Positions 1 through 44,475 of a stretch of 44,475 nucleotides of DNA are shown in pieces. The stretch spans positions 1-44,475 of IMG/VR virus record IMGVR_UViG_3300017691_000001; one strand, written 5' to 3'. Every line of letters begins with the position of its first letter. Position 1 is the first letter of the stretch. The notes under the pieces were generated by a model. It saw only the letters and a program-made list of their open reading frames with translations. It made no database searches and was not told where the DNA came from. The translations under genes were made by a program, and so were the position numbers. The stretch is from a virus.

Positions 1-123
1 CCGTGCGAACGTCAGTGTCAGCTTGCCGGTGCTGTCCGGTGCCATGGCCGCAATGTTGCCGACGTTGCCGTCTGCGCTGTTGCTGCCTGCATCGAAGGTG
101 ACAGACGTGGTGCCGATGGTAAC
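1..123. repeat. Direct terminal repeat copy 1, identical to 44353..44475; overlap of a circular or circularly permuted genome
   Basis: Read directly: the first 123 nt (ccgtgcgaacgtcagtgtcag...gtgccgatggtaac) recur exactly as the last 123 nt of the window. Confidence 0.97.
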
Positions 124-13075: not shown

Positions 13076-13600
13076 CTAGCCTTGCCGCAGTTTCAAGAAC
13101 CCTTGCACAGTGTACACCGTTCCCGCCGGAAGATTGGCAGCGACCGCCGCTTCTTCCGTGGCGTACTCGGTAACACCCGACAATATCGGGGCCTGCAACG
13201 TCTTCTGAAATAGCGTCTCAGGCTGATCCGCCGTGGCTAGAAGCCCCCGATAAGGCACCTGTACCTGCGTATCCTGGGTTACCGTCAGGTTGAGAACAAA
13301 GCCGCCAAGGACGTGCGACACCTGATCGTTGACGAAAAGCGTCAGCGTGGAGCCATCGTCCTTTGCGCTAATGCCAGCGCCGACCTGTAGCACCCGCTCA
13401 TTGGCGAACGCGGCGTTTGGCGACAACACCAAGACCGTGGCGTCGTTGATCGTTTCAGTGGCGTCGATATTGGACGCCAACCGCGTGGCGGCTTCCTCGC
13501 TCATGGCAGCTTCGGCCTCGAACGCCCTGATAGCACGCAAATCGCCGCCAAGCGCGTGGGATAGGATGTCGCGGGGGAGGGAGGAGATACCGTTAGGCAT
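13076..13600 (-). CDS. Hypothetical virion protein at the P22 gp26 (tail needle/plug) position
   Basis: ATG start. Synteny only, directly after the gp10-like gene. I could not verify sequence similarity to gp26. Confidence 0.6.
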   Translation of the reverse strand: MPNGISSLPRDILSHALGGDLRAIRAFEAEAAMSEEAATRLASNIDATETINDATVLVLSPNAAFANERVLQVGAGISAKDDGSTLTLFVNDQVSHVLGGFVLNLTVTQDTQVQVPYRGLLATADQPETLFQKTLQAPILSGVTEYATEEAAVAANLPAGTVYTVQGFLKLRQG

Positions 13601-14984
13601 TCAACCCCCTTACCCCCATCTCGCAAGCCGCCCACCCGGCCGCCATGGCGCTATAGCCCCGGAAACGCACGCCCATGTAATTCCGCACTCGCGCATGAGG
13701 TCGCCACTGTACGCGCTTGTACCGCTCGCCAGTCTTGCCGGCCGATACCGCACGCTCTGGCGTAAATGTCTCCCCATCGCGCGAATAAGACATGAACACG
13801 TCCGCGCCCAAGCTATCATCACCTCGCCCTGGCAAGCCGACCAGCTCGATACGGTCAATAATCGCACCGCGCGCCTGGTTATAGACAAAGCCCACGTCAA
13901 ACTGCCACTGCGCCGGCTCGCCGAAGTGCCGCGTCGCTACATCACGCAGCGAGCCGATCGCGCCGCTGGTCAGATCACCGACAAGAAACCGGTTATAGGC
14001 GAACACCGCCCAACGGATACGATATGCTTTGCCGATACCGGACTGGCATCGATACCAGATGGGCTCTCCGGCCTTCTCTGTGGCCTTGGCGAGGAACACC
14101 CACGTCTCTTCCGGCAGGTGCACCAGCAACCGTAATTCGTCGCGCGAGATGCGCTTTTCCAGCACAATCTGGGACGGCGTGGCAACGCGCGCCAAGGCAT
14201 CATCCACCACGCGCGTGCTGATCTTGCTGGACGTGGCAGATCCGGCGACATGCACGCCCAACGCATCGCTGCGAGATGACCCCACGAACGCGAACGTCTC
14301 ACCAAACAACGTCTTGGCCTGCGTGCCAACGCACCCCGTCTGGATCGTGGCCCCCTCGACCACTTGAAACGGAAACTGCGCCCCGCCGACATTCTGGAAC
14401 ACCTGTATCGTGTCCGTGCCCAGCACATATACCTCACCGCGTAGCTTGATCAGACCGACGATGGGATCGGGGTCAGCTTCCGCGCTGGCATACTTCAGCG
14501 GCTTCACTTCGAAAGGGTCATTAATCTCGGTAACCCCAAGATACTTGCCATCCGTGAACGCGGTATAGCCGTCTACCCACAGGCTATCGACGACTGCGCC
14601 CAAGTCGGTGTCGGTAACTTGGCGCAGAGCGCTGCCATCGTAGTACCAAAGCGCCGTACCGCTGCGGATAATAAGGCGATCGAACGAATAATCCAGCGAG
14701 GCCGTCCCCGCACCTCCCACTGACCCAATGGTCTGGACCGCACCGCCTGCATTCACCGATACCAGCCATTCGCCCATCACCGCATAGTAGAGGTCGTTCC
14801 ACACGATAGCCGCGCGCATGGGCGCAGGACCAGCGGCAAAATCTTCGGTGCCGGCCGTATGCCGCAATTGCCCTTTGGATACGCCGCTATCAATGATTAT
14901 GGGCTCTAGATTGAGCGGGTGCGATAGCTGAAACTCAGCCGCCTCGTTCGTTGTGATGCCATGCAATAGCGGGACCGCGACCAT
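13593..14984 (-). CDS. P22 gp10-like packaged-DNA stabilisation / tail hub protein
   Basis: 463 aa, against 472 aa for P22 gp10. Segments alignable by eye to remembered gp10: FPFQVVEGATIQTGCVGTQAKTLFGETFAFVGS, RDELRLLVHLPEETWVF, and C-terminal YKRVQWRP..RVRNYMGVRFRG. Confidence 0.85.
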   Translation of the reverse strand: MVAVPLLHGITTNEAAEFQLSHPLNLEPIIIDSGVSKGQLRHTAGTEDFAAGPAPMRAAIVWNDLYYAVMGEWLVSVNAGGAVQTIGSVGGAGTASLDYSFDRLIIRSGTALWYYDGSALRQVTDTDLGAVVDSLWVDGYTAFTDGKYLGVTEINDPFEVKPLKYASAEADPDPIVGLIKLRGEVYVLGTDTIQVFQNVGGAQFPFQVVEGATIQTGCVGTQAKTLFGETFAFVGSSRSDALGVHVAGSATSSKISTRVVDDALARVATPSQIVLEKRISRDELRLLVHLPEETWVFLAKATEKAGEPIWYRCQSGIGKAYRIRWAVFAYNRFLVGDLTSGAIGSLRDVATRHFGEPAQWQFDVGFVYNQARGAIIDRIELVGLPGRGDDSLGADVFMSYSRDGETFTPERAVSAGKTGERYKRVQWRPHARVRNYMGVRFRGYSAMAAGWAACEMGVRGLNA

Positions 14985-40851: not shown

Positions 40852-41111
40852 TGCGAATGAGCGACCGTCGCTACCATGTTCCGACCAGTGCTCCTGTCGG
40901 GCGTATCCAGATGCGCGCTAGGCGAAAAGTGGATGCCAGAAAGCGCATGAAGCCGAAGTCTTGGCCCTCTGCCTTTTGGTTCGCCTCCGACCTATTCGCG
41001 CGGGGGAATGCCACCCGCAGGCTCCGTTTCATGGAGCTAGCTCCGCACCTTTTCACCACCCCGCCACCCTGCGGACTGGCACCCGCATCCTCCGAGGGAG
41101 ATAGAGAATGA
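40851..41111 (+). CDS. Possible basic hypothetical protein (86 aa)
   Basis: The ATG shares a base with the upstream TGA. Arg/Pro-rich composition makes coding status uncertain. Confidence 0.4.
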   Translation: MRMSDRRYHVPTSAPVGRIQMRARRKVDARKRMKPKSWPSAFWFASDLFARGNATRRLRFMELAPHLFTTPPPCGLAPASSEGDRE

Positions 41112-41290
41112 CGGACTGGATACCGTGGGATGGTGGCCGATGCCCGGTCCATCCTCGCGCGCGAGTTGTTTGCCGGCTCGGCAACGGCATCGTCATGAAA
41201 GCGGCGATGGCGAAGGGGCGAGACTGGAAGCGCTATGAGGGCGATATGAAGGGCTGGCAGATTACCGCGTACTACGAGGTGCCCGCATGA
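41108..41290 (+). CDS. Hypothetical protein (60 aa)
   Basis: ATGA overlap. The WIPWDGGRCPV motif recurs in phage small proteins. Confidence 0.58.
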   Translation: MTDWIPWDGGRCPVHPRARVVCRLGNGIVMKAAMAKGRDWKRYEGDMKGWQITAYYEVPA

Positions 41291-41604
41291 CCCAGACCAC
41301 CGACGCCGCGCTGGTGGAGCTACTTCGCGGAATAGCCTACGTCGCCGGCCCTGATAGCCAGCAAAATGGCATGGCGCTCGACAGTGAAGAGGCGGGCCTG
41401 CTGACTGCTTACATCGAAGCACAGGCCCGCCGGATCGAGGCGCTGGAGGGGGCTCTGCGGCCGTTTGCAAAGGCTGGGGCGATTGCCGGCGAGCGCGACC
41501 CGCGATGGGACTTTTACGCTTACCGTCCGGCTGCTGGTGATGAGTATGCAATTATGGGCGATCACCTGCGCACTGCAAACGCTACCCTAGGAGACGCCCC
41601 ATGA
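41287..41604 (+). CDS. Hypothetical protein (105 aa)
   Basis: ATGA overlap. No motif recognised. Confidence 0.6.
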   Translation: MTQTTDAALVELLRGIAYVAGPDSQQNGMALDSEEAGLLTAYIEAQARRIEALEGALRPFAKAGAIAGERDPRWDFYAYRPAAGDEYAIMGDHLRTANATLGDAP

Positions 41605-41723
41605 CCCCGACCCTTCTCGCCCTAGCCTATACAGCCATGGATCAAGGGGAGTGGTGGGTTGCTGTGGGGGTGGTGGGGCTGGCAGTGGTGGGGCAGATTG
41701 GAGGACATGATGGAGCCGAATAA
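41601..41723 (+). CDS. Possible small membrane peptide (40 aa)
   Basis: Hand-found: MTPTLLALAYTAMDQGEWWVAVGVVGLAVVGQIGGHDGAE. ATGA overlap. Confidence 0.4.
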   Translation: MTPTLLALAYTAMDQGEWWVAVGVVGLAVVGQIGGHDGAE

Positions 41724-42030
41724 GATGCAGTGGCCCGACATGGCGGATGCGCCGAAGGATCGGCCTATCCTGCTGCTAGTGAATGACTTTGGCGAGGGTG
41801 ATCACGACGCCAATCTCGGCAATGTCGTGATCGGGCGCTGGCAGGACCGATGGGGCCGTGAGAACGAACTGATGCCGGTGGAATATCAAGGATGGGTGTC
41901 AGACATCAAGACCCATGAACAGTCTCAAGCGCCGATGCAAACCAAGCTCAACCCGATCGGCTGGTATGATCTGATCCACCCCGCGCTCCCCGTCCATATT
42001 CAGCCGCCGGCCGCAATCTACCAGTCGTGA
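41707..42030 (+). CDS. Hypothetical protein (107 aa), DUF551-like
   Basis: ATG after GGAGGA. W..(D)..P.DRPILLL...W...GW...NPIGWYDL pattern. Confidence 0.58.
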   Translation: MMEPNKMQWPDMADAPKDRPILLLVNDFGEGDHDANLGNVVIGRWQDRWGRENELMPVEYQGWVSDIKTHEQSQAPMQTKLNPIGWYDLIHPALPVHIQPPAAIYQS

Positions 42031-42151
42031 GGCACCGCCGCCTCCTAGCCGTCATGGCCCTGCTATGCGGGATGCTGGTGGGGATGATGGGGTGGGTGCT
42101 GATTAATGGGCGCTAGTGGAAGCTAGTGGGTTTGTGCTTTCGAGTATGAAT

Positions 42152-42216
42152 TGGCAGGGCTGCGGGGGCTCGAACCCCGCAAAGTCACGGCGCGCTTTCC
42201 GTGAAACCCCAGCCCG
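42152..42216 (-). ncRNA. tRNA-like element: acceptor-like stem, one hairpin, canonical T-arm and 3' GCCA. It has no D-arm and no canonical anticodon loop.
   Basis: Minus strand: c-GGGCUG-ggguu-UCACGG-aaagcgcg-CCGUGA-cuuug-CGGGG-UUCGAGC-CCCCG-CAGCCC-u-G-CCA. Stems 42215-10/42162-57, 42204-199/42190-85 and 42179-75/42167-63. The 7-nt loop TTCGAGC fits the T-loop consensus. Confidence 0.5.
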
Positions 42217-42234
42217 ACGCTGTTGCCCTATAAT

Positions 42235-42335
42235 GCTGCGGGCGTAGCGGGGAATAGCACGCAGTCCGACAGTGCTGTCATCCGCCAGCCGCCGTCCGCA
42301 ATCGGACTTGAAGACGATCACACCTCGCCCGCAGC
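42235..42335 (-). other. Long-range perfect 10-bp helix enclosing nested or alternative stems, adjacent to the tRNA-like element
   Basis: gctgcgggcg (42235-44) / cgcccgcagc (42326-35). Inner pairs agtccga (42263-69) / tcggact (42302-08), and agcac (42256-60) / gtgct (42272-76). Confidence 0.5.
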
Positions 42336-42394
42336 GTGCCAGACCTACCCCGTCGTTCAACGGATCACCCTAGCCATAGAATCATGCCACAATC

Positions 42395-42413
42395 CCCCTT
42401 GACAGGCAAGGGG
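42395..42413 (-). terminator. Hairpin immediately after the stop of the glycoside hydrolase gene (candidate late-operon terminator)
   Basis: Minus strand TGA-cat-CCCCTT-gcctgtc-AAGGGG-gattgtgg. 6-bp stem, 7-nt loop, weak U-tract. Confidence 0.45.
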
Positions 42414-42416
42414 ATG

Positions 42417-44285
42417 TCACTTCCCCGCAGCCTCCAACACCGCCGCCCGCTTCGGCGTCTCCGCCACAGGCTGGCCGGCATATTCGCGAATGCCCCAGGC
42501 ACCGCCCCCGCCGGCCGGGCCTGTGGCGCTATACAAGACCATCAAATCACCCGTAGCGGCCCTCCAGGCGGTGATATAATTCCTGTACAACGTCGCCATT
42601 TCAGGCGCGCGGTTGACCATCTGCACCCGTGCGCCCCCGCCGGTGGTAAAGTCCGTGACGTGCTGACCTGCCTCATAGGTGATGAGGCGCTTGCCCTTGG
42701 CGCGCACCGCGTCGAGCGTCGTCCACGACTTGGCCAAGATTTCATCCATGCCCTTACGGAGTGACGCCATGCGGGTCGCCAGATCCGCATCGGCCGGCAT
42801 GTCGCCCGCATAGTTGAAGTACGGCGCGATCGCGATGGCATCAATCGCGCTGACCAGCGCCAGATTGGCGAGATGCTGTTCCGTCACCCACGGGTTGGAC
42901 GCCTGCGACCCGGCGACGCGGACGAGGGTTTGGGGCCGATCGGCGAACACCTTGGACCAGATCGCCATCGTCTCGATGACCTTCTGGTCATAACGCGCGA
43001 TATTGGCTTGGAACCCGTTTGTATTGAGCCCGGCTGCCAGTCCCTCCGCTTGGATCTGGTGAGAGAGCGGAAAGGCATAGTTCCATGGCTCGTTGCCCAA
43101 CTCGACATAGGCGCGCCGGCCGGCCGGTAGGCTGTCGTGGACCAGCTTCGCCATGCGGGCGACATAGTCCGCGTCCGCGTTCCACGGAATGGTGAACCAC
43201 GGGTCCGCATCCGCCGCCTTGGCGAGCGCCAGCATATGCTCCAGCGCCACGCCGTCACGCTTGCGGTCGACCTGATTGATGCTCGCCGGCAGCGTGCGAT
43301 TGGCCCACGTCACCGAAGCCGGGTTCTGGTTCGCTGCTGACCAGTCAAGGAAACGGATGACCTTGAACGGCTTGAGGCTGTCGATGATCTGCGGTTCGAA
43401 CACGGCATCGCGCGGCAGCTTGACGTTGCGGCAATCCAGACCCTTGATCGGGTCGCTGGCGGGCACTTTGGAGATCGAAATCCAATTGCGCGTGTTGCCT
43501 TCCGGCGCGGGGCCAGCGGGCCAGTCGAAGGTCAGCGTGTGATCGCCGCGCGTGATCGTCTTGCGCGATCCACCAATGTCGACGTTGCCGGTGCCGGTCC
43601 ACGTGCACCGTACGAACGCCGCCTGGCCTGCAAAGATGCCGGCTGGGGGCGTCATGACGATCGCGTAGCTCTTGCCGTCAGGGACTGACAGCGGCATCCC
43701 AAGCGTGTCGAGCTGATCTGCTGGCACCGGCTGCCACTGGTTGTTCGTGTCGACCCACCCAGCCCCCGTCACGATGTTAGCGAAGGTGGCTTCGTTCGAA
43801 TAATAGTCGACGGAGGCGACGTTGATGCCGAGGCCGTTCGTGCGGTCGCTGACGGGGACAGGCGTCACAATAGGAGACCCCTGCGTCGCGCATGCCTTCA
43901 CCGTGCCGACGATGGGATCACCGCCGAACGTGGCATTGTTGCAGGTGAACTTGCCGGACAGCGCCTTGATGACGAACTTGCCCGCCGCACCGTAACGCAC
44001 CTGCGTATTCGGGAGGACCGTGCAGGTGCCGCCTTCCTCCACGCAGTTGACCCAATCAGCGACAGGCGGCAGAGCCTTGATACGATCGCGGCGGATCTGT
44101 TCGGCCGTTGTCGCTGCTGTCTTGGCCTTGGCGAAGCAGTCGGCGTTAGTGGCCAGAGCGGTAGCATTATCGGCTTCCGCCTTGCCGATGTCCGTGGGGC
44201 CGCAGCCGGCGATGGTTTGCCCGGAGGCGGGGGCCGCCAGGAAGGTGGCGAGCATGACGCCGGCCACCATGAGGTATCGGTTCAT
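42417..44285 (-). CDS. Exported glycoside hydrolase, clan GH-A-like (beta/alpha)8 fold, with an N-terminal signal peptide and a Cys-rich N-domain
   Basis: Signal peptide MNRYLMVAGVMLATFLAAPASG-Q, with a lipobox-like IAGC shortly after. Acid/base-type motif YVELGNEPWN. Candidate nucleophile LITYEAGQH. Start lies 13 nt after the esterase fibre stop. Confidence 0.8.
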   Translation of the reverse strand: MNRYLMVAGVMLATFLAAPASGQTIAGCGPTDIGKAEADNATALATNADCFAKAKTAATTAEQIRRDRIKALPPVADWVNCVEEGGTCTVLPNTQVRYGAAGKFVIKALSGKFTCNNATFGGDPIVGTVKACATQGSPIVTPVPVSDRTNGLGINVASVDYYSNEATFANIVTGAGWVDTNNQWQPVPADQLDTLGMPLSVPDGKSYAIVMTPPAGIFAGQAAFVRCTWTGTGNVDIGGSRKTITRGDHTLTFDWPAGPAPEGNTRNWISISKVPASDPIKGLDCRNVKLPRDAVFEPQIIDSLKPFKVIRFLDWSAANQNPASVTWANRTLPASINQVDRKRDGVALEHMLALAKAADADPWFTIPWNADADYVARMAKLVHDSLPAGRRAYVELGNEPWNYAFPLSHQIQAEGLAAGLNTNGFQANIARYDQKVIETMAIWSKVFADRPQTLVRVAGSQASNPWVTEQHLANLALVSAIDAIAIAPYFNYAGDMPADADLATRMASLRKGMDEILAKSWTTLDAVRAKGKRLITYEAGQHVTDFTTGGGARVQMVNRAPEMATLYRNYITAWRAATGDLMVLYSATGPAGGGGAWGIREYAGQPVAETPKRAAVLEAAGK

Positions 44286-44298
44286 GCTCGCTGTCCTA

Positions 44299-44475
44299 TC
44301 AGTTTTCGTAGATTTCGAGAACGGAGAGATAGCCGAAGCTATACCCTGTCGCCCGTGCGAACGTCAGTGTCAGCTTGCCGGTGCTGTCCGGTGCCATGGC
44401 CGCAATGTTGCCGACGTTGCCGTCTGCGCTGTTGCTGCCTGCATCGAAGGTGACAGACGTGGTGCCGATGGTAAC
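44299..44475 (-). CDS. 3' end of the esterase fibre gene. Only 44299..44352 is unique; 44353..44475 duplicates 1..123.
   Basis: Frame continuity across the junction: ...TFAR | ATGYSFGYLSVLEIYEN, stop TGA at 44301..44299. Confidence 0.85.
   Translation of the reverse strand, partial: VTIGTTSVTFDAGSNSADGNVGNIAAMAPDSTGKLTLTFARATGYSFGYLSVLEIYEN
44353..44475. repeat. Direct terminal repeat copy 2, identical to 1..123
   Basis: Exact 123-nt identity with the window start. Joining the ends keeps the minus-strand reading frame of the split gene. Confidence 0.97.

What the first reader, a model, noticed from the sequence alone, without database searches (positions are those of the whole stretch)
42152..42335. 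CCA-terminated, D-arm-less tRNA-like fold plus a long-range helix in the 300-bp non-coding convergence zone
The only large non-coding stretch in this packed genome (42118-42416) lies where the early (+) and late (-) blocks converge. On the minus strand it ends in a three-way junction. The junction has a 6-bp acceptor-like stem (GGGCUG/CAGCCC), a 6-bp hairpin with an 8-nt loop, and a 5-bp T-stem with a textbook 7-nt loop UUCGAGC. It finishes with U-G-CCA. A1-U72 with discriminator G73 is the bacterial tRNA-Trp combination; here U72 and G73 are present, but with the GGGCUG pairing position 1 is a C (C.U mismatch), and the alternative 5' strand AGGGCAA that supplies A1-U72 pairs for only 5 bp. 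There is no D-arm, no U33 and no CCA anticodon. Immediately 5' is a perfect 10-bp helix closing 81 nt with nested stems. The T-loop asymmetry argues that the minus strand is the functional one. Possible roles, all inferred: a tRNA-mimic 3' end processed by RNase P or the CCA-adding enzyme that protects the late transcript; a decoy for tRNA-targeting host defences; a degenerate captured tRNA; or a relic tRNA 3' half of an attP.
Basis: partly seen in the sequence, partly recalled or inferred. Interest (0 to 1): 0.75.

Follow-up and report, generated by a model that had tools for sequence, protein, structure and literature searches.

The report
Mobile tRNA-shaped RNA gene in phages
The non-coding stretch holds a conserved 78-base RNA gene that folds like a complete but non-decoding tRNA with a tryptophan-tRNA-type end; it moves between phage genomes as a small cassette and matches no described RNA family, so it is probably a tRNA mimic whose job is still unknown.

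Summary
These are the T hairpin with loop UUCGAGC, a hairpin with an 8-nt loop, the U-G-CCA end and a 10-bp helix closing 81 nt. The proposed fold is wrong.

Four homologous sequences from relatives, which with the window form three diverged lineages, show a complete 78-nt cloverleaf at 42229-42152:
- an invariant 5-bp acceptor stem, AGGGC/GCCCU;
- a 9-bp bulged arm with an invariant AAAGCGCG loop;
- a 7-bp T arm, then G-CCA.

All 125 pair cells are standard pairs. Seven pairs change on both sides, and no shuffle out of 500 reaches this. G.U pairs point to the minus strand.

The element lies at different places in different genomes. In three near-relatives a ~209-bp cassette sits between two tail genes, antisense to them. 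In an otherwise unrelated phage it lies after the lysis genes. It is not a tRNA, tmRNA or any Rfam family. It is not an attP relic: the genome has no integrase and no host genome matches it. It is not the 85-aa ORF.

Best reading: an independently transcribed tRNA mimic with a tRNA-Trp-type acceptor end, matured like a tRNA. Its function is unproven.

The parts
42152..42229 (-). 78-nt tRNA-shaped RNA (A1 at 42229, the terminal A of CCA at 42152): a full cloverleaf
   Evidence: It is the minimum-free-energy fold of window:42150-42234:- and the RNAalifold consensus. Across 5 homologues, 25 pairs give 125/125 standard pair cells and 7 pairs changed on both sides. The covariance model scores family members at 80-115 bits, against 14-29 bits for real tRNAs.
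42225..42229 (-). Acceptor 5' strand AGGGC, pairing with GCCCU at 42156-42160. It is invariant and preceded by an invariant U(-1) at 42230.
   Evidence: The same AGGGC...GCCCU-G-CCA is found in real tRNA-Trp genes.
42210..42222 (-). D-like hairpin CAGC-GUCGG-GCUG: a 4-bp stem and a 5-nt loop ending in an invariant GG
   Evidence: Three of its 4 pairs change on both sides: CAGC/GCUG, CACC/GGUG and CCCG/CGGG.
42182..42209 (-). Long 'anticodon-position' arm: GGGU, a UU bulge, CACGG, loop AAAGCGCG, CCGUG, ACUU. It has 9 bp. The 16-nt core ACGGAAAGCGCGCCGU is invariant, and there is no U33 or anticodon.
   Evidence: Pairs 28-51 (G-C, A-U, U-A) and 29-50 (U-A, G-C) covary. The 2-nt deletion in L128 removes exactly the bulge.
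42161..42181 (-). T arm: 7-bp stem UGCGGGG/CCCCGCA with the canonical 7-nt loop UUCGAGC
   Evidence: Two pairs change on both sides. The loop variants UUCAAGU and UUCGAUC keep U54 U55 C56 R57 A58.
42152..42155 (-). Discriminator G followed by the encoded CCA
   Evidence: GCCA is present in 4 of 5 homologues; L045 has GCCG.
42230..42234 (-). Single-stranded 5-nt spacer AUUAU between the leader helix and A1
   Evidence: In 4 of the 5 homologues a long helix ends 4-5 nt before A1. In L045's predicted fold the helix runs up to A1.
42235..42335 (-). Leader domain: the 10-bp helix GCUGCGGGCG/CGCCCGCAGC closing a variable 81-nt insert
   Evidence: L126 has CUGCGGCUGG/CCAGCCGCAG, with two pairs compensated by my hand alignment, around an unrelated insert. 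L045 keeps GCUGCGG/CCGCAGC around a degenerate tRNA.
42381..42409 (-). Promoter-like site: TTGCCT (42409-42404), a 17-nt spacer, then TGG-CATGAT (42389-42381)
   Evidence: A comparable -35 and TGn-extended -10 stand upstream in L126 (TTGACT-16-TGGCATTTT), L128 (TTGTCA-16-TGGTAGTTT) and L045 (TTGCCT-17-TGGCATAGA). All fall below the threshold of the consensus scan, so this part is inferred.
42393..42415 (-). Hairpin just after the stop codon of the 622-aa gene. It overlaps the -35-like hexamer.
   Evidence: L045 has the same hairpin at 97% identity behind a different gene.
42027..42116 (+). Convergent 29-codon ORF for a small hydrophobic peptide, conserved together with the element
   Evidence: The block 42032-42233 is 88-92% identical in L045 and L072. 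L128 has an analogous hydrophobic C-terminus facing its copy of the element.

Best explanation
The region encodes a small non-coding RNA gene on the minus strand.

**Proposed pathway**
1. Transcription most likely starts at a weak promoter with an extended -10, near 42375.
2. It runs through a structured, variable leader (the 10-bp helix domain).
3. It then runs through a 78-nt tRNA-shaped module.

**Features of the module that fit tRNA maturation enzymes**
- an invariant U at -1;
- a single-stranded 5-nt spacer before A1;
- a 12-bp coaxial acceptor/T stack, here 5+7 bp instead of the usual 7+5;
- a canonical T loop, and a D loop ending in GG that could form the elbow;
- an encoded G-CCA end.

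I therefore propose that RNase P cuts at A1 and that 3' trimming or CCA repair gives a stable 78-nt RNA.

**Proposed action**
The RNA cannot decode. Its third arm has 9 bp and an 8-nt loop, AAAGCGCG, with no U33. I propose that it acts in trans as a tRNA mimic. It would engage one or more tRNA-binding proteins through its invariant tRNA-Trp-type acceptor end and its elbow, with the invariant hairpin as a second specificity determinant. The most plausible role is as a decoy or sponge for a host factor that targets or handles tRNA.

**Shown**
- conservation and covariation;
- strand;
- mobility between genomes;
- absence of coding potential;
- non-membership in known families.

**Inferred**
- the promoter;
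- the processing steps;
- the partner and the biological role.

**How the confidence breaks down**
The confidence of 0.55 is for the whole chain. For the sub-claims I estimate:
- about 0.85 that this is a conserved, structured, tRNA-shaped RNA;
- about 0.6 that it is matured like a tRNA;
- about 0.25 that it is a decoy.
For: **Homologues in three diverged lineages**
- L045 and L072 are near-identical to the window.
- L125, L126 and L127 are 87% identical over 90 nt.
- L128 is 84% identical over 64 nt.

**Fold**
- The cloverleaf is the minimum-free-energy fold in the window and the RNAalifold consensus.
- On alignment A7, 25 pairs give 125/125 standard pair cells. Seven pairs change on both sides. 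No shuffle out of 500 reaches any measure. Slid controls pair at 41-51%.
- The compensations between the window and L126 lie in an ungapped alignment, so they do not depend on fitting to the model.

**Strand**
- G.U pairs are found at 26-53 (5 of 5 sequences), 27-52 (4 of 5) and 32-49 (L128). On the other strand these would be C.A.
- The T-loop variants keep UUCRA.

**Selection and mobility**
- In L128 the element is almost the only nucleotide similarity to the window in 13.7 kb. The only other match is a 65-nt stretch in an unrelated gene.
- In L125-L127 a ~209-bp cassette sits between the homologues of window genes 13593-14984 and 13076-13600. Those genes overlap in the window, and the cassette is antisense to them.
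- The window's nearest relatives, L001-L003, lack the element at the window's site.
- There is one copy per sequence searched.

**Identity of the acceptor end**
- The acceptor end matches real tRNA-Trp genes.

**Published background on RNase P**
- An RCCA 3' motif and the residue at position -1 matter for cleavage by bacterial RNase P (PMC12710915 abstract).
- RNase P clamps onto the tRNA elbow and measures a distance from it (PMC4919913 abstract).
Against: - There are only 5 sequences in 3 lineages, all from metagenomic phages.
- The alignment of L128 is fitted to the model.
- Folding energy is not better than shuffles (z about -1.4).
- L128's own minimum-free-energy fold is a different one, 1.8 kcal/mol more stable than the cloverleaf.
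- No promoter passes the consensus scan, and no terminator follows the CCA.
- L045 encodes CCG rather than CCA.
- There are no expression data and no identified partner.
- No complementary target for the invariant loop is enriched in the genome: 10 matches against 11.3 expected.
- The element is dispensable at this locus in the closest relatives.
Confidence: 0.55

Rival explanations
1. A cis-acting processing and stability module. The tRNA-like fold would be a 'punctuation mark': RNase P or 3' trimming would define and protect the 3' end of whatever RNA lies upstream, whether that is the variable leader 'cargo' or the late or moron mRNA. This would resemble the way mascRNA defines the 3' end of MALAT1.
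For: - In at least 3 of the 5 contexts the element lies downstream of, and on the same strand as, the preceding gene. These are the 622-aa gene in the window, the PEP-CTERM-like protein gene in L045 and the lysis genes in L128. The short L072 contig does not show its upstream gene.
- The leader domains are unrelated in sequence but always end in a helix just before A1.
- The only Rfam resemblance is to mascRNA-menRNA, at 18.6-24.8 bits.
Against: - In L125-L127 the cassette is antisense to both flanking genes, so it cannot serve their mRNA.
- A pure processing signal would not need an invariant 16-nt hairpin core or an invariant tRNA-Trp-type acceptor sequence while the other stems drift.
- The Rfam hits are far below the gathering score of 42.5.
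Confidence: 0.17
2. A decaying tRNA pseudogene: a tRNA-Trp-derived gene captured by an ancestor phage, now without function and conserved only because the phages diverged recently.
For: - L045 carries a degenerate tRNA immediately upstream. Rfam tRNA scores it at 34.1 bits, its anticodon loop has 12 nt, and ARAGORN does not call it.
- L072 carries another T-arm-like fragment upstream.
- The window's nearest relatives lack the element at this site.
- The 3' half resembles tRNA-Trp.
Against: - Seven pairs are compensated on both sides and no pair cell is broken.
- The 16-nt core and the acceptor are invariant, while L128 differs from the window at about 1 position in 6 of the matching 64 nt.
- The element persists in an otherwise unrelated genome and at a second insertion site.
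- The neighbouring true pseudo-tRNA shows what decay looks like, with indels in the acceptor stem and the loop.
Confidence: 0.12
3. A relic or active attP: the 3' part of a host tRNA gene carried by the phage for integrase-mediated insertion.
For: - The position is between the end of the late block and the end of the early block.
- The 3' end is tRNA-Trp-like and includes CCA.
Against: - No integrase or recombinase domain was found in any Pfam or PHROGs scan of the large ORFs.
- The conserved unit is a whole cloverleaf including the 5' half.
- The pattern GGGGTTCRANYCCCCGCAGCCCTG is absent from one genome of each of 185,579 species.
- The same element sits inside the tail-gene block in L125-L127.
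Confidence: 0.03
4. A DNA-level element, such as a protein-binding or recombination site or an origin-like hairpin cluster, rather than an RNA. Alternatively, the 85-aa ORF 42103-42360 is a real gene.
For: - The cassette is mobile.
- It contains a GCGCGC palindrome.
- The RKARR-containing reading frame is open across the element itself in all five sequences.
Against: - The G.U pairs would be C.A on the other strand, and the T-loop motif is strand-specific.
- The ORF has no conserved start. In L128 a UAG (U-1, A1, G2) closes the frame. In L072 the frame is bounded by stops. L045 has a 1-nt insertion at the 3' end.
- The compensated stem changes give non-conservative amino-acid changes: EPPQ, KSRQ and DPRQ.
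Confidence: 0.03

Closest known systems
Phage-encoded tRNAs, including those that counter host tRNA-cleaving defences (PMC10264068, PMC11464382, PMC11555353; abstracts)
   Same: It is carried by a phage, has a cloverleaf with a canonical T loop and an encoded CCA, and has a tRNA-Trp-type acceptor end like genuine phage tRNA-Trp genes. The known tRNAs act by supplying or replacing tRNA during infection.
   Different: It has no anticodon loop (8 nt, no U33). Its third arm has 9 bp, its acceptor/T split is 5+7, and its D loop has 5 nt. ARAGORN and Rfam tRNA do not detect it. It cannot replace a cleaved tRNA in translation, so if it counters a defence it must do so as a decoy.
YrlA-type bacterial Y RNAs with a tRNA-like domain, also found in 22 bacteriophages (PMC4201824)
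   Same: Both are non-coding RNAs that mimic tRNA with D- and T-arm-like hairpins. M. smegmatis YrlA is cut by RNase P and receives CCA.
   Different: YrlA lies within 4 kb of a Ro60 (TROVE) gene and has a Ro-binding stem with the motif GNCGAAN0-1G. Its RNA ends lie where the anticodon arm would be. Here I found no TROVE protein in the scans, the ends are at the acceptor stem, and Rfam gives no YrlA match.
mascRNA / MEN-beta tRNA-like small RNAs (Rfam RF01684)
   Same: This is the only Rfam model that aligns: acceptor plus T arm with a shortened middle (21.4, 24.8 and 18.6 bits). It offers a functional analogy as a tRNA-like unit that is processed by tRNA enzymes and does not decode.
   Different: mascRNA is a eukaryotic nuclear family.
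tRNA-gene fragments at prophage attachment sites (PMC9897764, listed)
   Same: Both are tRNA-like sequences with a CCA end in a mobile-element context, and standard tRNA finders miss or miscall them.
   Different: Those are 3' fragments identical to a host tRNA and sit next to an integrase. This is a whole covarying cloverleaf with no integrase and no host match.
tmRNA tRNA-like domain
   Same: Both have an acceptor stem plus T arm ending in CCA, attached to a larger structured RNA, with a reduced D region.
   Different: ARAGORN finds no tmRNA. There is no G3.U70, the discriminator is G rather than A, and there is no tag reading frame. Here the structured domain lies upstream of an intact cloverleaf, not between the two acceptor strands.

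Membership tests
Canonical bacterial tRNA | Detected by tRNA gene finders or covariance models | tested here: not met
   ARAGORN finds 0 genes in the window. Rfam finds nothing at gathering scores and gives no tRNA match at E<=10 in 41950-42550.
Canonical bacterial tRNA | 7-bp acceptor stem and 5-bp T stem | tested here: not met
   The acceptor has 5 conserved pairs. Positions 6 and 7 of a 7-bp acceptor (A, A) would face A and C. The T stem has 7 bp, so the total of 12 bp is kept.
Canonical bacterial tRNA | 5-bp anticodon stem with a 7-nt loop and U33 | tested here: not met
   The arm has 9 bp with a bulge, and the 8-nt loop AAAGCGCG has no U at the position of U33. The loop is invariant in all 5 sequences.
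Canonical bacterial tRNA | T loop U54 U55 C56 R57 A58, discriminator base and CCA | tested here: met
   The T loops are UUCGAGC, UUCAAGU and UUCGAUC. G-CCA is present in 4 of 5 sequences, and L045 has G-CCG.
Canonical bacterial tRNA | D arm with G18 G19 able to contact the T loop | tested here: inconclusive
   A 4-bp covarying stem is present. The loop has only 5 nt and ends in an invariant GG. The tertiary contact cannot be tested with these tools.
tRNA-Trp (identity set) | A1-U72 and G73 in the acceptor end | tested here: met
   AGGGC/GCCCU followed by G-CCA is invariant. It is shared with more than 100 genomic and 19 phage tRNA-Trp genes.
tRNA-Trp (identity set) | Anticodon CCA | tested here: not met
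   There is no CUCCAAA-type loop; the loop reads AAAGCGCG.
attP / host tRNA 3' fragment | Exact identity to the 3' part of a host tRNA gene | tested here: not met
   The 24-nt pattern covering the T arm and acceptor strand gives 0 matches in one genome of each of 185,579 species.
attP / host tRNA 3' fragment | Integrase encoded in the genome, usually adjacent | tested here: not met
   No integrase or recombinase family appears in the Pfam and PHROGs scans of 43 ORFs, which covered most ORFs of 150 aa or more.
tmRNA | tRNA-Ala-like acceptor (G3.U70, A73) and a tag reading frame | tested here: not met
   ARAGORN finds no tmRNA. Pair 3-70 is G-C and position 73 is G.
YrlA / bacterial Y RNA | Located within about 4 kb of a Ro60 (TROVE) gene; Ro-binding stem with GNCGAAN0-1G (PMC4201824) | tested here: not met
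   No TROVE domain appears in any scanned ORF, and Rfam gives no Y RNA match.
mascRNA-menRNA (RF01684) | Score at or above the Rfam gathering score of 42.5 bits | tested here: not met
   The scores are 21.4, 24.8 and 18.6 bits.
Phage moron (autonomous unit inserted between genes) | Present between two adjacent genes in one genome and absent from the same junction in relatives | tested here: met
   A ~209-bp insert lies between the gp10-like and needle-like genes in L125-L127. These genes overlap by 8 nt in the window.
Phage moron (autonomous unit inserted between genes) | Own promoter and terminator | tested here: inconclusive
   A -35 and TGn-extended -10-like motifs stand upstream in four lineages. 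None passes the consensus scan, and no terminator follows the CCA.

The most novel reading that the evidence does not exclude
This is the founding member of an undescribed family of mobile, phage-borne tRNA mimics. The RNA would be matured by the host's tRNA enzymes. It would display an exact tRNA-Trp acceptor end on a tRNA-shaped body, with an invariant GCGCG-containing loop in place of the anticodon. It would work as an anti-defence decoy or inhibitor, sequestering a host enzyme that recognises the acceptor end or elbow of tRNA. Candidates include a tRNA-cleaving or tRNA-3'-end-modifying immune effector, or TrpRS.
Probability: 0.25. Interest if true: 0.75.

Novelty: new variant of a known kind. 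Interest (0 to 1): 0.6.

Why it matters
Phage tRNAs have recently been shown to defeat host defences that cleave tRNA. A phage RNA that keeps everything a tRNA-handling enzyme reads except the decoding end would be a different strategy: mimicry rather than replacement.

The features it keeps are the acceptor identity, the 12-bp stack, the elbow and the CCA. The family is small, sharply defined and mobile, and standard tRNA finders and Rfam do not see it. Similar elements may therefore be common and overlooked.

It also gives a clean experimental handle. A single 78-nt gene can be deleted or expressed alone to look for a binding partner.

Tried and rejected
Rejected, because 3 of the 6 'acceptor' pairs break in L126 or L128 without compensation.

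**2. My first cloverleaf, with a 6-bp third arm.** Replaced, because pair 31-50 was broken in 2 of 5 sequences. The 9-bp bulged arm pairs in all cells and explains L128's 2-nt deletion.

**3. Host tRNA or att identity.** The exact patterns gave nothing relevant.
- Viral contigs gave 0 matches.
- Species genomes gave 0 matches.
- The looser patterns returned ordinary tRNA-Pro genes and tRNA-Trp genes.

**4. Searches of annotated collections.** Megablast of the 3.5-kb window end (41000-44475) and distant BLAST of 42030-42420 against annotated phages gave nothing relevant, and distant BLAST of the element against plasmids gave no match.

**5. Antisense-target idea.** The complement of the invariant loop is not enriched in the genome.

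**6. A second copy or paralogue.** The covariance model finds only one copy per sequence.

**7. 'Other large non-coding stretch' at 1402-1890.** This was an artefact of ORF listing at the circular junction.

**8. Relatives through the 123-aa neighbouring ORF.** None were found in viral contigs.

**9. L124.** Its hit to the hairpin 18-mer lies inside a coding region and is unrelated.

**10. L264.** This 97-nt odd tRNA-Arg, which shares ACGGAAGCGC, is probably a coincidence.
Full report
**Setting**

The window is a complete, circularly permuted phage genome.
- Its first and last 123 bases are identical, and a relative aligns across the junction.
- It encodes P22-type portal, coat, terminase, gp7, gp10 and gp4 homologues on the minus strand.
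- It encodes replication and recombination genes on the plus strand.
- The nearest cultured relative is Sphingopyxis phage VSN-002, at 51% portal identity. A sphingomonad host is therefore likely, but this is inferred.
- No integrase was found in any scan.
- The stretch 42117-42416 lies between the last plus-strand ORF, a 29-codon hydrophobic peptide ending at 42116, and the 622-aa minus-strand gene ending at 42417.
- The only other long ORF-free stretch, 1402-1890, is in fact coding for a 753-aa gene that crosses the circular junction.

**Checking the observation**

- The hairpin GCGGGG-UUCGAGC-CCCCGC is followed by AGCCCU-G-CCA and ends at 42152.
- The hairpin UCACGG-AAAGCGCG-CCGUGA is present.
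- The perfect 10-bp helix 42335-42326 / 42244-42235 closes 81 nt.

Standard tools see nothing.
- ARAGORN finds no tRNA or tmRNA.
- Rfam finds nothing at gathering scores.
- The only weak match is mascRNA-menRNA, at 21.4 bits against a gathering score of 42.5.

Folding energy is not distinguishable from shuffled sequence. The z-scores are -1.37 for the 65-nt stretch, -0.76 for the whole gap on the minus strand and -1.42 for the 85-nt stretch. Taken alone, the window sequence would not establish anything.

**Homologues**

Exact-pattern scans gave four further sequences (three sequence variants beyond the window's) that form, with the window, three lineages.
- **Lineage 1:** the window itself. 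L045 (the same contig as L123) and L072 are near-identical over window 42032-42233.
- **Lineage 2:** L125, L126 and L127, 87% identical over window 42152-42241.
- **Lineage 3:** L128, 84% identical over 64 nt.

The context differs between lineages.
- The window's closest relatives, L001-L003, share the 622-aa gene at 88% nucleotide identity. They lack the whole block 41628-42414 and have about 130 unrelated bases there instead.
- L126 comes from the same 44-kb contig as L001. It carries the element about 14 kb away, in a ~209-bp insert between the gp10-like and the needle-like tail genes. Those two genes overlap by 8 nt in the window. The tRNA-like strand is antisense to both.
- L128 is an otherwise unrelated 46.7-kb phage. 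Across the 13.7 kb held, it shares only a 64-nt and a 65-nt nucleotide match and one 40%-identical protein with the window. There the element follows the GH19 endolysin cassette, at another convergence zone.
- A covariance model finds exactly one copy in each sequence searched.

**The fold**

Its 'acceptor' helix GGGCUG/CAGCCC loses 3 of its 6 pairs in L126 or L128 without compensation. When the five bases upstream are included, the minimum-free-energy fold of the window sequence is a cloverleaf. This is also the RNAalifold consensus.

After refinement the structure in window coordinates is:

| Part | Sequence | Coordinates |
|---|---|---|
| Acceptor 5' strand | AGGGC | 42229-42225 |
| Linker | AA | 42224-42223 |
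| D-like hairpin | CAGC-GUCGG-GCUG | 42222-42210 |
| Long arm, 5' side | GGGU, UU bulge, CACGG | 42209-42199 |
| Loop | AAAGCGCG | 42198-42191 |
| Long arm, 3' side | CCGUG, ACUU | 42190-42182 |
| T arm | UGCGGGG-UUCGAGC-CCCCGCA | 42181-42161 |
| Acceptor 3' strand | GCCCU | 42160-42156 |
| Discriminator | G | 42155 |
| 3' end | CCA | 42154-42152 |

On the five sequences, all 125 pair cells are standard pairs. Seven pairs change on both sides: three in the D-like stem, two in the long arm and two in the T stem. None of 500 shuffles reaches any of the five measures, and sliding the partners drops pairing to 41-51%.

The alignment of L128 is fitted to the model, which favours the structure. The window-L126 comparison needs no gaps and on its own contributes compensated pairs in the D-like stem, the long arm and the T stem. 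L128's two-base deletion coincides exactly with the bulge.

G.U pairs at 26-53, 27-52 and 32-49 would be C.A mismatches on the other strand. Together with the strand-specific T loop, they identify the minus strand as the RNA strand.

The AGGGC it set aside is the true acceptor strand.

**What kind of molecule this is**

It keeps the features that tRNA-handling enzymes read:
- a 12-bp acceptor/T stack, split 5+7 instead of 7+5;
- a canonical T loop, whose substitutions keep U54 U55 C56 R57 A58;
- a D loop ending in an invariant GG;
- an invariant U at -1 after a 4-5-nt single-stranded spacer (in 4 of the 5 sequences);
- G-CCA at the 3' end.

Its acceptor end, AGGGC...GCCCU-G-CCA, is the one found in genuine tRNA-Trp genes of many bacteria and of large phages. 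Those real tRNAs score only 14-29 bits with the family model, against 80-115 bits for family members.

It lacks what a decoding tRNA needs. The third arm has 9 bp, and its 8-nt loop has no U33 or anticodon. That loop and its closing pairs (ACGGAAAGCGCGCCGU) are invariant across all lineages, as is the acceptor stem, while the D-like and T stems drift by compensated changes. This suggests that the two ends of the molecule are read by sequence. With three lineages it is no more than suggestive.

**Upstream and downstream**

Window, L126 and L045 share a helix GCUGCGG/CCGCAGC, extended differently in each. By my hand alignment, two pairs are compensated between the window and L126. The helix closes unrelated inserts: 81 nt in the window, about 65 nt in L126 and about 150 nt in L045. 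The L045 insert includes a degenerate tRNA that Rfam scores at 34.1 bits and ARAGORN rejects. L072 and L128 have other long helices in the same place. In 4 of the 5 sequences the helix ends 4-5 nt before A1; in L045's predicted fold it runs up to A1.

Upstream of these leaders, four lineages carry a -35-like hexamer and a TGn-extended -10-like motif at 16-17-nt spacing:
- window: TTGCCT-17-TGGCATGAT;
- L126: TTGACT-16-TGGCATTTT;
- L128: TTGTCA-16-TGGTAGTTT;
- L045: TTGCCT-17-TGGCATAGA.

None passes the strict consensus scan, so the promoter is inferred. L126, which is antisense to its neighbours, must have one if the element is expressed. No terminator follows the CCA.

**Alternatives**

- **The 85-aa ORF.** It has no conserved start. 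In L128 a UAG formed by U-1, A1 and G2 closes the frame, and in L072 the frame is bounded by stops. The compensated stem changes cause non-conservative amino-acid changes.
- **attP relic.** This is contradicted by the absence of an integrase, by the conserved 5' half, by the second insertion site, and by the absence of the window's 24-mer from one genome of each of 185,579 species.
- **Plain decay of a captured tRNA.** This is hard to reconcile with seven compensated pairs and no broken cell. The neighbouring pseudo-tRNA in L045 shows what decay looks like.
- **A cis-acting 3'-end module for upstream transcripts.** This remains possible for the window, L045 and L128. It does not fit the antisense cassette of L125-L127 or the invariant loop.
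- **An antisense regulator acting through the loop.** This finds no support: there are 10 near-matches to the loop complement against 11.3 expected.

**Mechanism proposed**

I propose a self-contained small RNA gene. Its primary transcript would be cut by RNase P at A1 and trimmed or repaired to CCA, giving a stable 78-nt tRNA mimic that acts in trans on a tRNA-binding partner.

Published work fits each step in principle.
- RNase P depends on the RCCA 3' motif and on the -1 residue (PMC12710915).
- RNase P measures from the tRNA elbow (PMC4919913).
- Bacterial and phage Y RNAs with tRNA-like domains are cut by RNase P and receive CCA (PMC4201824).
- Phage tRNAs neutralise defences that cleave tRNA (PMC10264068, PMC11464382, PMC11555353).

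Nothing here identifies the partner. The decoy role is a hypothesis, to which I give about one chance in four.

**Comparison with known families, and novelty**

The element works like a tRNA mimic. It fails the membership tests for canonical tRNA, tRNA-Trp, tmRNA, YrlA, mascRNA and att-site tRNA fragments. It meets the positional criterion for a phage moron. I rate it a new variant of a known kind: a phage-borne tRNA-like non-coding RNA.

Interest is moderate to high. A specialist would not be astonished that phages carry tRNA mimics. This one, however, is sharply defined, mobile, invisible to standard annotation and immediately testable.

Noticed in passing
window 1-123 and 44353-44475; window 2208 -> 1 / 44352 -> 44299 (minus strand): The first and last 123 bases are identical, which indicates a circular assembly. 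A 753-aa minus-strand ORF runs across the junction, so ORF lists of the linear window miss it.
   Followed up: yes
window 42417-44285 (-): This 622-aa protein has an N-terminal signal-peptide-like segment and a GNEPWN motif, but no Pfam or PHROGs match. Relatives conserve it at 92-93% amino-acid identity. It may be a secreted glycosidase-like moron at the end of the late block.
   Followed up: partly
window 42112-42119 and 42122-42129 (+): A tandem direct repeat GCTAGTGG-aa-GCTAGTGG overlaps the stop codon of the small ORF. In L045 both copies read GCTAATGG, so the two copies change together. The consensus scan calls this spot a weak + strand terminator.
   Followed up: partly
L045 5985-6063 (+): A degenerate tRNA lies about 65 nt upstream of the element. 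Rfam tRNA scores it at 34.1 bits. It has a CAU-containing anticodon loop enlarged to 12 nt and a 1-nt deletion in the acceptor strand. ARAGORN does not call it.
   Followed up: partly
L072 ~43-105 (+): A 15-bp helix ACGAGGUGGCGGCA/UGCCGUCACCUCGU encloses a second T-arm-like hairpin, GCGGG-UUCAACU-CCCGC. It looks like a rearranged tRNA fragment serving as the leader of the element.
   Followed up: no
L045 5248-5841 (+): The gene upstream of the element in this relative encodes a 197-aa protein with a signal peptide and a PEP-CTERM-like C-terminus (VPEPSTWALMLAGFGMVGYAMRRRK), which is unusual cargo for a phage.
   Followed up: no
window 41628-42414 compared with L001-L003 7867-7997: The nearest relatives replace about 790 bp with about 130 unrelated bases. 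The replaced block holds the 123-aa ORF, the 29-codon ORF and the RNA element. This marks a mosaic junction at the point where the early and late blocks converge.
   Followed up: yes
L264 4031-4127 (+): In the tRNA cluster of a 98-kb phage, ARAGORN calls a 97-nt tRNA-Arg(UCU). It has a tRNA-Trp-type acceptor end and an ACGGAAGCGC stretch that recalls the element's invariant hairpin. This is probably a coincidence.
   Followed up: partly
L010, L017, L018, L033, L040, L049 and others (metagenome loci): Many marine contigs carry the T arm and acceptor 3' strand of a tRNA-Phe-like gene (...TCTAGGTGTTCGGGGTTCAAATCCCCGCAGCCCCAC) without a recognisable 5' half. They may be tRNA 3' fragments at integration sites.
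   Followed up: no
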